A stretch of 64,000 nucleotides of DNA, from the IMG/VR virus record IMGVR_UViG_637000265_000001. One strand, written 5' to 3'. Positions 41,681 through 43,102 of this stretch are shown piece by piece. The position numbers and the translations under genes are program-made. The notes beneath the pieces were generated by a model, which saw nothing but the letters and a program-made list of their open reading frames with translations, was not told the DNA's origin and did no database searches. How positions within the stretch are numbered: position 1 is the first letter of the stretch; the number at the start of each line of letters is the position of its first letter. The stretch comes from a virus. Taxonomy: Duplodnaviria; Heunggongvirae; Uroviricota; Caudoviricetes.

Positions 41681-41882
41681 TTATTTAATCAATGAGCTCT
41701 GAAAGGCATGAAGTCTATCATCCAAGTCTCAATTGATCGATACTTGCTATGTCTGATGAGACAAAACTGAGACACATAAGGCCTCACAATGGCTTGCAAG
41801 GCTTTACATGTTTTGATGTGGTGGGACGTGTGAGCGCAGTGTTGATGGGATAATCCTTTGAATTACAAGCGGATTCTTATAA

Positions 41883-41927
41883 TTCGTAATGCGAAGGTCG
41901 TAGGTTCGACTCCTATTATCGGCACCA
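41883..41927 (+). other. attP-type core: 3' 45 nt of tRNA-Thr ending in CCA, no 5' half
   Basis: TTCGTAATGCGAAGGTCGTAGGTTCGACTCCTATTATCGGCACCA equals anticodon-loop-to-CCA of a tRNA-Thr; upstream sequence is not the tRNA 5' half. Confidence 0.7.
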
Positions 41928-41941
41928 TTTAAATCAATAAG

Positions 41942-43102
41942 TTACCTCGCATTTAAGTAAACCACGTTCTCCTCTTGTGCCGTATTTGTGCCATTGCGAC
42001 TTATAATCGCATCGATTTTGCTTGCGTGCTCGGTGAGATGCCCGGCTGAAAGGTGGGCGTATCTTTGAACCATTTCGAGAGTTTCCCATCCTCCCATCTC
42101 TTTAAGTGCAAGAAGAGAGACACCGGACTGAACCAGCCAGCTTGCCCAGGTATGCCTCAGATCATGGAAGCGGAAGTTGCTAATGCCTGCCCGCTTTAAC
42201 GCTCCCTTCCATGCCTTGTTGCTGTCGGTTCTCATCTTCCTTACCGCTGCTGTTTTTGTTCCGTCGCTTCGGTAGGCAGGTTTGGTGTGGACAAATACCC
42301 ATCTCTTATGGAGCCCCTGCTGTTTTCTTAATATCTGGCATGCGGTTTCGTTAAGAGGAACTCCGATCGCATTGCCAGCTTTTGTTTCATCAGGGTGCAT
42401 CCATGCCATTTTCTTATCCAGATCGACCTGTGACCACTCAAGGTCTGTAACGTTGGAACGGCGAAGGCCTGTCGTGATTGCAAACATGACCACAGGGAAG
42501 AAGTGAGGAGCAATTTCTGCAAACAGGCGCTTCGATTCCTCCTCTGTAAGCCATCTGATGCGTCCATTCTTAACGCGTGGTGTTGATATTTTGGGTGCCC
42601 TGTCAAGCCATCCCCATTCAACAGCCATATTGAGAATGGCGCGAAGTATTGCCAGATGCCTCGTCTTCGTTCCTTTGCTTGCAAGCTTTGGTTTATACTC
42701 CGGCACCGGATTGCCAAGTCGCAAACACCTGTCCCGGCTCATCTCCCAGTTCAGGCGATGGCGGCGGTTTTCCATCCCGTCTACCGCCTCCATTATTTTT
42801 TCTGTTGTTATGTCAGAGAGAATGGCTTCTCTGAAGTGCAACATCCAGAACGATATAATGCTCTTGTCATCATCAATGGACTTCTTATCCGATTTCTCAC
42901 GCAGCCACCGTATGCAGGCTTCCTTGAATAGCTTTTTCGGTGATTCCCCGAGATTTTTTACTCTCCACGCTTCTGCTTTCAGACGATCGTGAAGTTCTTG
43001 CGCTTGCCTTTTGTCCGATGTTTCAAGAGAGCGTCTAACTCTTGATCCATCTGGCGCGACGAAATCGCAGTGCCACGTGCCACCGCGTAGTTTGATTGAC
43101 AT
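41942..43102 (-). CDS. int: tyrosine integrase (P22-like)
   Basis: 386 aa with C-terminal HDLRHT...Y catalytic region; convergent with the tRNA fragment. Confidence 0.9.
   Translation of the reverse strand: MSIKLRGGTWHCDFVAPDGSRVRRSLETSDKRQAQELHDRLKAEAWRVKNLGESPKKLFKEACIRWLREKSDKKSIDDDKSIISFWMLHFREAILSDITTEKIMEAVDGMENRRHRLNWEMSRDRCLRLGNPVPEYKPKLASKGTKTRHLAILRAILNMAVEWGWLDRAPKISTPRVKNGRIRWLTEEESKRLFAEIAPHFFPVVMFAITTGLRRSNVTDLEWSQVDLDKKMAWMHPDETKAGNAIGVPLNETACQILRKQQGLHKRWVFVHTKPAYRSDGTKTAAVRKMRTDSNKAWKGALKRAGISNFRFHDLRHTWASWLVQSGVSLLALKEMGGWETLEMVQRYAHLSAGHLTEHASKIDAIISRNGTNTAQEENVVYLNAR

What the first reader, a model, noticed from the sequence alone, without database searches (positions are those of the whole stretch)
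41681..43102. gtrA - tRNA-Thr 3' fragment - int adjacency is an attP-type (circularly permuted) junction
In an integrated thrW prophage, int and the gtr operon lie at opposite ends. Here they flank only the 3' 45 nt of tRNA-Thr, with no tRNA 5' half, which is the vegetative attP arrangement. This implies tandem prophages, an excised circular or replicating form, or a rearrangement; the window order (late genes, gtr, att, int, early genes) supports this.
Basis: partly seen in the sequence, partly recalled or inferred. Interest (0 to 1): 0.5.

Follow-up and report, generated by a model that had tools for sequence, protein, structure and literature searches.

The report
Hybrid junction between two Shigella prophages
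The gtrA–tRNA fragment–integrase junction is real, but it is the seam between two different serotype-converting prophages (SfV-type and SfX-type) in the Shigella flexneri 8401 chromosome, a known result of double lysogeny at thrW that insertion sequences later scrambled.

Summary
gtrA (41318-41680, -), an exact 46-nt 3' end of tRNA-Thr (41882-41927, +) and an intact integrase (41942-43102, -) are adjacent. The window has no tRNA 5' half.

The window is chromosomal: Shigella flexneri 5b strain 8401, CP000266.1:235520-299519.

The junction is not the attP of one phage. Its left arm is the SfV/SfI/SfII type. Its right arm and int are the SfX/mEpX2 type. The switch falls exactly at a 64-bp shared core. 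It is 98.3% identical to the published seam between SfI and SfX prophages integrated in tandem at thrW (Sun et al. 2011).

The genes on each side agree. SfV-type myovirus late genes plus gtrV lie to the left. SfX-type int, xis, early and lysis genes lie to the right. A displaced P22-like (SfX-type) late block lies further left.

An intact thrW with proA lies 1.2 kb beyond the window's right end. It is inverted and joined to a second, IS600-truncated int copy.

IS600, IS629 and IS911 have cut and reordered both prophages.

Verdict: a fossil prophage–prophage junction of a known kind. Interest is low.

The parts
22919..39025 (+). Late (head and contractile-tail) genes of an SfV/SfI/SfII-type prophage. 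They begin inside the large-terminase gene, which IS600 has cut.
   Evidence: 97.4-97.9% identity to SfI, SfII and SfV over 80-93% of 22919-41945. Homology starts at SfII position 1931, inside the large terminase gene at 617-2350. Pfam families for portal, capsid, sheath and baseplate.
39148..40401 (-). gtrV, the serotype V glucosyltransferase (417 aa)
   Evidence: ORF. It aligns with the gtrV region of SfV. The exact protein is present in 115 collection blocks.
40398..41321 (-). gtrB, the bactoprenol glucosyltransferase (307 aa)
   Evidence: ORF; PF00535; 99.7% identity to SfV/SfI/SfII.
41318..41680 (-). gtrA, the flippase (120 aa)
   Evidence: ORF; PF04138; the exact protein is in 2671 blocks.
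41681..41881 (.). P arm of the SfV/SfI/SfII type. It carries the candidate V-type arm repeat TGGGAC at 41822-41827 and no X-type repeat.
   Evidence: Matches SfII and differs from SfV at 1 nt over the ~60 nt next to the core that were aligned; the whole arm is 99.7-99.8% identical to SfI/SfV/SfII and matches the published SfI attP and SfI-SfX seam. Unlike the mEpX2/SfX P arm (65% to the SfX attP). Motif scan.
41882..41945 (+). 64-bp core common to all these att sites. It comprises the 3' 46 nt of tRNA-Thr thrW (41882-41927) and the 18 nt downstream.
   Evidence: Homology to SfV-type phages and to mEpX2/HK542-type phages overlaps only here.
41946..42100 (.). P' arm of the SfX/mEpX2 type (it overlaps the int 3' end). 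It carries tandem candidate arm repeats TTGTGCC at 41975-41981 and 41986-41992.
   Evidence: Alignment. The motifs lie at the same offsets (+29, +40) as in mEpX2, whereas SfV and SfII have TGGGAC at +30 and +41. The published SfX int flank CCTCGCATTTAAGTA matches.
41942..43102 (-). int, an SfX-type tyrosine integrase, intact at 386 aa
   Evidence: 98.9% to SfX int, 98.4% to HK542 and mEpX2. PF00589. The identical protein is in 824 blocks, normally next to thrW-proA.
42979..43326 (-). xis, the excisionase (115 aa), overlapping the int 5' end
   Evidence: ORF; PF12728 HTH_17; same overlap layout as mEpX2 int/xis.
43327..63532 (.). Early, replication, nin, Q and lysis genes of a lambdoid/P22-like (SfX-type) prophage, interrupted by IS1 and IS4 and ending at IS600
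   Evidence: Best matches are HK542 and mEpX2, mosaic, 47% cover at 96-97%. Almost nothing in common with SfV or SfII. Has cII, NinB/E/F/H, RusA, Q and a lambda-type holin, as reported for SfX.
63533..64000 (+). IS600 left end. The element runs on to window-equivalent 64798. Beyond it lie a 357-bp int 3' remnant, intact thrW (window-equivalent 65171-65246, - strand) and proA.
   Evidence: The 3 bp flanking the two IS600 ends differ (AAA versus GGG), so this is not a simple insertion.
20680..22918 (.). IS composite separating the two late-gene blocks. IS600 left end (20680-20764, +) is interrupted by IS629 (about 20765-22075, +) and then joined to an inverted partial IS600 (about 22083-22918, -).
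   Evidence: Rfam ALIL frameshift pseudoknot at 21099-21215.
8006..20679 (+). P22-like (SfX-type) late genes: terminase C-terminal part, portal, scaffold, coat, through gp20 and a truncated gp16. The block is cut by IS911 on the left and IS600 on the right.
   Evidence: 96.8% to P22-like phage APC_JM3.2. The exact gp20 protein lies in thrW prophages that carry gtrX and the SfX P arm.

Best explanation
The junction is a hybrid attachment site, the seam between two different prophages that both use thrW. The left side (gtrV-gtrB-gtrA plus the P arm) is the right end of an SfV-type myovirus prophage. The right side (P' arm, int, xis, early and lysis genes) is the left end of an SfX-type, P22-like prophage.

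Such a seam forms when Int inserts one phage's attP into the attL (or attR) of a prophage already at thrW. The crossover lies in the shared 64-bp core, so the arms on the two sides keep their different origins. This much is shown by sequence.

The later history is inferred. IS600, IS629 and IS911 truncated both prophages and moved the SfX-type late genes to the left of the SfV-type late genes. They also left the whole block inverted relative to thrW-proA. thrW is now joined again to an older IS600-cut int remnant.

Today the seam is a fossil. Its P arm carries motifs of the SfV-type Int, which is absent from the window. Its P' arm carries motifs of the resident SfX-type Int. Neither prophage has a correctly oriented partner att site.
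For: 1. Chromosomal origin. All 56,765 checked bases are identical to CP000266.1. Host genes lie on both sides: a T6SS island and dnaQ to the left, thrW-proA-proB-phoE to the right.

2. The homology switch falls exactly at the core. SfI/SfV/SfII match 41300-41945 at 99.7-99.8%. SfX int and HK542/mEpX2 match from 41882 onward at 98-99%. The five-way alignment shows it directly.

3. [quoted passage not shown] It is only 65% identical to native SfX attP, and it differs from native SfI attP on the int side.

4. The candidate arm repeats are mismatched: V-type TGGGAC in the P arm, X-type TTGTGCC twice in the P' arm. mEpX2 has X-type repeats in both arms, and SfV and SfII have V-type in both.

5. 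The flanking gene blocks differ in the same way: SfV-type late genes on the left, early genes unrelated to SfV on the right.

6. A P22-like late block in the window carries the exact gp20 protein of SfX prophages that have gtrX and the SfX P arm. SfX is described as short-tailed and P22-like, with an Int unlike that of SfV.

7. A second int 3' end with intact thrW lies outside the window. It differs at 5 of 419 nt, so it is not a recent duplicate.

8. Serotype 5b needs gtrV plus gtrX, which means SfV plus SfX.
Against: The canonical tandem layout is not present. attL is inverted and carries an X-type int remnant, not a V-type one. The SfX-type late genes lie on the wrong side. gtrX, the SfX attR and the SfV int and early genes were not found in the window, and I could not locate them elsewhere in the genome. 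The order of lysogenisation and the number of rearrangement steps therefore remain open. No complete SfX genome was available to compare with the early region. The arm-repeat assignment rests on analogy with lambda and P22, not on binding data.
Confidence: 0.8

Rival explanations
1. The junction is the native attP of a single recombinant phage (SfV-type late genes plus gtrV, with SfX-type int and early genes). Its circular genome entered the chromosome by homologous recombination at IS600 rather than by Int, which left attP intact in the middle.
For: The block between the IS600 copies (22919-63532) is about one genome-equivalent: 40.6 kb including IS1 and IS4. Both ends fall near the cos/terminase region, with an estimated 2.8 kb missing. 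Hybrid phages can arise from tandem lysogens.
Against: The two flanking IS600 copies are inverted, both with the left end facing the phage DNA, whereas IS-mediated capture of a circle gives direct repeats. The arms carry motifs for two different Int types. Every sequenced phage with this Int has the other P arm. No phage record combines the two halves. The adjacent P22-like late block is the usual partner of this int type.
Confidence: 0.12
2. The seam was not made by tandem integration. It is the attP-type product of an excision-type recombination between an attL (thrW-core-intX) and an attR (gtrA-P arm-core-int remnant) that an earlier IS600 inversion had placed in inverted orientation. The DNA between them flipped instead of being excised. 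The other product is the re-formed thrW-int remnant-IS600.
For: The int remnant plus IS600, with the identical breakpoint and allele, lies on the attR side next to gtrA in another strain (CP012735.1), but next to intact thrW in 8401. The two att/int copies are inverted repeats of 419 bp at 98.8% identity, about 23 kb apart. The remnant keeps its own allele to within 25 nt of the core, so if a crossover happened it was at or near the core.
Against: It still needs two prophages to explain the two late-gene blocks. The P arm lacks motifs for the resident Int, so the event would need the lost SfV-type Int or RecA. Integration into a secondary att site, or excision followed by recapture at IS600, gives the same map. 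No assembly with the opposite isomer was seen.
Confidence: 0.06
3. The junction is an assembly artefact, or reads from an excised circular phage were collapsed into the chromosome.
For: Repeats and IS elements make this region hard to assemble.
Against: The same junction, 99.9-100% identical, is present in an independent complete genome (CP026799.1), where an IS600-adjacent deletion changes the context. It is also in two drafts and in a 102.7-kb JGI contig. The arms come from two phages, so it cannot be the circle junction of either one.
Confidence: 0.02

Closest known systems
The SfI-SfX seam in tandem lysogens at thrW (S. flexneri 036_1d; Sun et al. 2011, PMC3306764)
   Same: gtrA, then the SfI/SfV-type P arm, the 64-bp core, the SfX-type P' arm, then intX. 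Sequence identity is 98.3% over 292 nt. Same locus and same Int family.
   Different: Here the upstream prophage carries gtrV, not gtrI. The example is natural and old, not made in the laboratory. The canonical flanks (attL with the upstream phage's int, then SfX late genes, gtrX and attR) have been destroyed or displaced by IS600, IS629 and IS911. The block is inverted relative to thrW-proA.
Native attP of SfV, SfI and SfII
   Same: Identical gtrA-P arm-core at 99.7-99.8%.
   Different: The P' arm and int are about 75% or less identical, and the N-terminal part of int is unrelated. The candidate P' arm repeats are TGGGAC rather than TTGTGCC.
Native attP of SfX and of coliphages mEpX2, HK542, HK446 and mEp213
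   Same: Core, P' arm, int and xis at 98-99%.
   Different: Their P arm is a different sequence with three TTGTG(C/A)C repeats, and it is absent from the whole window.
The SHI-O serotype-conversion island of S. flexneri (Nie et al. 2006, PMC1550401)
   Same: This is that island in strain 8401. The paper reports gtrA, gtrB and gtrV plus about 15 kb of SfV, and an IS-mediated inversion around SHI-O.
   Different: A term search of the paper found no mention of SfX or gtrX, and none of the passages read describes the gtr-att-int seam, a second prophage type or the int remnant at thrW.

Membership tests
attP of a single temperate phage (vegetative or circularly permuted form) | P arm, core and P' arm belong to the same phage and match its Int | tested here: not met
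   The P arm is SfV/SfI/SfII type and the P' arm is SfX/mEpX2 type. The candidate arm repeats are of two different types.
attP of a single temperate phage (vegetative or circularly permuted form) | The flanking DNA is one contiguous phage genome on a phage or circular molecule | tested here: not met
   The context is chromosomal. The late and early halves have different phage relatives. The terminase gene is cut by IS600.
Internal seam of tandem prophages at thrW (hybrid attR/attL) | The gtr end and P arm of one prophage are joined through the common core to the P' arm and int of another | tested here: met
   287/292 identity to the published SfI-SfX seam. The homology switch is at 41882-41945.
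Internal seam of tandem prophages at thrW (hybrid attR/attL) | The upstream prophage begins at attL (thrW plus its own int) in direct orientation next to proA | tested here: not met
   thrW-proA lies on the other side, inverted, and joined to an IS600-cut X-type int remnant. The SfV-type int and early genes are absent from the window.
Internal seam of tandem prophages at thrW (hybrid attR/attL) | The downstream prophage continues to its own gtr cluster and attR | tested here: inconclusive
   SfX-type late genes are present but displaced and cut in gp16. There is no SfX P arm in the window. gtrX could not be located in the genome.
tRNA-Thr gene (thrW) | A complete cloverleaf with 5' half and anticodon arm | tested here: not met
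   Only the 3' 46 nt are present. ARAGORN and Rfam find no tRNA. The intact gene lies outside the window.
Tyrosine integrase plus excisionase module of SfX-type thrW phages | Intact int and xis ORFs with the family domains, highly similar to SfX int and xis | tested here: met
   A 386-aa ORF with PF00589 and a 115-aa ORF with PF12728. 98.9% identity to the SfX int-xis record. Catalytic activity was not tested.
gtrABC O-antigen glucosylation cassette | gtrA (GtrA family), gtrB (GT2) and a type-specific gtr gene in one operon next to att | tested here: met
   Three intact ORFs. PF04138 and PF00535. Collinear with gtrA/B/V of SfV.

The most novel reading that the evidence does not exclude
The seam and the re-formed thrW-int remnant are the two products of an excision-type attL x attR reaction between att sites that an IS600 inversion had turned head-to-head. 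The prophage DNA was flipped and trapped instead of lost. The 23-kb segment between the two inverted 419-bp att/int repeats may still switch orientation while the intact SfX-type Int and Xis are expressed.
Probability: 0.1. Interest if true: 0.45.

Novelty: new member of a known kind. Interest (0 to 1): 0.2.

Why it matters
It explains an odd-looking gene order in the serotype-conversion island of a reference Shigella genome. The island is the wreck of two thrW prophages, not one SfV remnant as first described. It gives a natural counterpart to the laboratory SfI/SfX tandem lysogens, consistent with sequential lysogeny at thrW as a natural route to compound serotypes such as 5b. It also shows how insertion sequences then lock the conversion genes in place, because neither prophage keeps a usable pair of att sites. 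For annotation, it is a warning that gtr-att-int adjacency in a chromosome does not mean a free or circular phage.

Tried and rejected
1. I looked for a second core or a tRNA 5' half in the window and found none.

2. I looked for long direct repeats that would indicate a true tandem duplication of one phage. Only IS600 ends were found.

3. I considered that the window might be a phage record. This is rejected by the host genes on both sides and the identity to CP000266.1.

4. I considered a single permuted genome because of the unit length. I down-weighted this because the IS600 copies are inverted, the arms are mismatched, and the P22-like block is the normal partner of this int.

5. I tried to locate gtrX and the SfX right end in strain 8401.
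- The SfX gtr record AF056939 is not in the phage collection.
- A metagenome scan with a gtrX 30-mer hit only a food metagenome, not the 8401-like JGI sample.
- GtrX homologues were retrieved, but the exact protein could not be looked up.
- A literature search for 8401 with gtrX found nothing.

6. I tried to reconstruct the full rearrangement path. Several routes give the observed map: either order of lysogeny plus an IS600 inversion, an att x att inversion and an IS-mediated deletion; or excision followed by recapture at IS600; or integration at a secondary att site. They could not be told apart with the DNA available.

Full report
**What is there**

The window reads gtrV (39148-40401), gtrB (40398-41321) and gtrA (41318-41680), all on the minus strand. 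A 261-bp spacer follows, then int (41942-43102, minus, 386 aa) and an overlapping xis (42979-43326).

Inside the spacer, 41882-41927 (+) matches the 3' 46 nt of tRNA-Thr thrW exactly. It occurs once, and none is expected by chance. The 5' half of the tRNA is nowhere in the window. ARAGORN and Rfam report no tRNA.

**Where the window comes from**

Every fetched piece of CP000266.1 (Shigella flexneri 5b strain 8401) that overlaps the window is identical to it. That is 56,765 bases with 0 mismatches, which places the window at 235520-299519.

- To the left of the window lie a T6SS island, dnaQ and rnhA.
- To the right lie the rest of IS600, a 357-bp 3' fragment of a second int, an intact tRNA-Thr(CGT), then proA, proB, IS1, phoE, crl, frsA, gpt and pepD.

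So this is bacterial chromosome, not a phage record or an excised circle. A canonical attL (thrW plus an int 3' end) does exist. It sits at window-equivalent 65171-65246, inverted relative to the att and int in the window.

**Why the adjacency is anomalous**

The identical Int protein is widespread. In 8 of 10 sampled places it sits in the usual attL context, int-thrW-proA. gtrA normally abuts host genes at attR. Only 8401-type records show int-att-gtrA.

That join is 99.9-100% identical in two draft assemblies and in the complete genome CP026799.1. In CP026799.1 an IS600-adjacent deletion has removed everything between IS600 and the int start. The junction is therefore real and inherited within a lineage.

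**What the junction is**

Against phage records, 41300-41945 matches SfI, SfV, SfII and SfIV at 99.2-99.8%. From 41882 onward the match is to SfX int-xis (98.9%) and to coliphages HK542, mEpX2, HK446 and mEp213 (98.3-98.5%). The two sets overlap only in 41882-41945.

A five-way alignment shows this 64-bp core is shared by all of them. The left arm is SfV/SfII type and unlike mEpX2. The right arm is mEpX2 type and only about 75% like SfV/SfII.

Sun et al. 2011 (PMC3306764) made SfX + SfI double lysogens. They showed that SfI integrates into attL of the resident SfX, so the two prophages lie in tandem at thrW. Their supplementary file gives the junction sequences. Compared with those sequences:

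- It is only 65% identical to the native SfX attP, whose P arm resembles that of mEpX2.
- It differs from the native SfI attP on the int side.

Candidate arm-type repeats agree:

- mEpX2 has TTGTG(C/A)C three times in its P arm and twice in its P' arm.
- SfV and SfII have TGGGAC once in the P arm and twice in the P' arm, at the same offsets.
- The window has the V-type repeat in its P arm (41822-41827) and the X-type pair in its P' arm (41975-41981 and 41986-41992).

That these repeats are Int arm sites is an inference by analogy with lambda and P22. Neither the SfX P arm nor the V-type P' arm occurs anywhere in the window. The junction is therefore a hybrid att site, not the attP of one phage.

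**The flanking genes tell the same story**

Positions 22919-41945 are 97.4-97.9% identical to SfI, SfII and SfV: HK97-like head, Mu-like contractile tail, then the gtr cluster. This block starts inside the large-terminase gene.

Positions 41882-63532 are a mosaic lambdoid early and lysis region. Its best matches are HK542 and mEpX2, and it shares almost nothing with SfV or SfII.

Further left, 8006-20679 is a P22-like late block running from a terminase fragment through a truncated gp16 (96.8% to APC_JM3.2). Its exact gp20 protein occurs in thrW prophages of other strains. Those prophages carry an IS-cut X-type int, a tailspike, a 421-aa Gtr, gtrB, gtrA and the SfX P arm (98.5% to the published SfX attP).

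The literature describes SfX as short-tailed, with P22-like headful packaging, an Int and Xis unlike those of SfI/II/IV/V, cII/cIII/N genes and a dual-start holin.

The window thus holds one int-early-lysis region and two late-gene blocks. The early region and the P22-like block are SfX-type. The myovirus block with gtrV is SfV-type. Serotype 5b is defined by gtrV plus gtrX, which fits a history of SfV plus SfX lysogeny. I could not confirm that 8401 still carries gtrX.

**Rearrangement (inferred)**

The phage segment 22919-63532 is bounded by IS600 copies in inverted orientation, both with the left end facing the phage DNA.

- The left boundary is a composite. An IS600 left end is interrupted by IS629 and fused to an inverted partial IS600.
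- The 3 bp flanking the right IS600 differ (AAA versus GGG), so it marks a recombinant joint.
- IS911 cuts the P22-like terminase. IS1 and IS4 sit in the early region.
- The genome paper notes an IS-mediated inversion around SHI-O. Neither the passages I read nor a term search for SfX and gtrX turned up the seam or an SfX-type prophage.

The int remnant at thrW is X-type. It differs from the full int at 5 of 419 nt, so it is not a recent copy. The same remnant, with the identical IS600 breakpoint and allele, occurs in CP012735.1. There it lies next to gtrA-P arm-core, on the attR side of a resident prophage. It is therefore an older shared relic. In 8401, thrW and this relic have been rejoined even though prophage DNA persists beyond the IS600.

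Several routes give the observed map:

- Either order of lysogeny, followed by an IS600 inversion, a recombination between the then-inverted att sites, and an IS-mediated deletion between the SfV terminase and SfX gp16.
- Excision of the tandem pair and recapture at IS600.
- Integration at a secondary att site.

I could not discriminate between these routes.

**How it works now**

The gtr operon is intact and presumably still confers the type V antigen. Int and xis are intact ORFs. The seam could once have served as attR for the SfV-type prophage and as attL for the SfX-type prophage. Both partner sites are now missing or inverted, the SfV-type Int is gone, and both terminase genes are cut. 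It is best read as a fossil that fixes gtrV in the chromosome.

**Comparison and verdict**

The closest known case is the SfI-SfX seam of Sun et al. 2011. This is the same kind of object, with gtrV in place of gtrI, in a natural strain and heavily decayed. It fails the tests for a single-phage attP and for a tRNA gene. It meets the central test for a tandem-prophage seam, but not the tests for an intact tandem array.

Novelty: a new member of a known kind. Interest is low (0.2).

The most novel reading still open is that the seam and the restored thrW-remnant are products of an excision-type reaction between inverted att sites, and that the 23-kb segment may still flip.

Noticed in passing
window 20680-22918: A nested IS structure. 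The first ~90 nt of IS600 are interrupted by a complete IS629 (3-bp duplication ACG) and then fused head-to-head to an inverted ~835-nt IS600 piece. The Rfam ALIL frameshift pseudoknot hit at 21099-21215 belongs to the IS629.
   Followed up: partly
window 1286-3704 (- strand), with 4459-6155: An orphan lambdoid lysis cassette (holin, lysozyme, Rz) in reverse orientation between IS2 and IS911. The same lysozyme protein, with its neighbours, also occurs in another prophage of the same genome at about 2.77 Mb. Next to it are a 405-aa and a 151-aa ORF; the gene calls over that stretch include one DUF6971 hit and a 379-aa product with no Pfam family on record.
   Followed up: partly
window 52850-54196 and 48799-49571: An IS4 transposase gene sits between the cro-like HTH gene and cII of the SfX-type early region. 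An IS1 copy sits in the early-left operon. Both would disable the prophage independently of the IS600 cuts.
   Followed up: no
L026 (CP026799.1) 560-3460: In a related complete genome, the IS600 next to the thrW int remnant abuts the full int 8 bp upstream of its start codon. About 20 kb (xis, early and lysis genes) have been lost by an IS600-adjacent deletion, while the hybrid seam and gtrV are kept.
   Followed up: partly
L042 (CP012735.1) 7250-8010; L054 10030-10925: Other S. flexneri records also show gtrA-att-int adjacency for ordinary reasons. In L042, gtrA-P arm-core abuts the old IS600-cut int remnant. In L054, a P22-like prophage whose 421-aa Gtr gene is identical to the gtrX of L051 is followed by a V-type int. 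Seams and relic ints at thrW seem common in this species.
   Followed up: partly
window 38000-42000: G+C drops to 0.40 over the gtr cluster, against 0.52-0.58 in the neighbouring tail genes. This is typical of a cargo gene cassette acquired separately from the phage backbone.
   Followed up: no
L001/L015/L024/L032/L049 (JGI 3300001148, contig More10kbN_1001754, 102,720 bp): A contig deposited as metagenome is identical to the window (S. flexneri 8401) over the last 11.4 kb and at the att junction, and shares its gene order elsewhere. It looks like an isolate, a spike-in or a contaminant rather than an environmental sequence.
   Followed up: no
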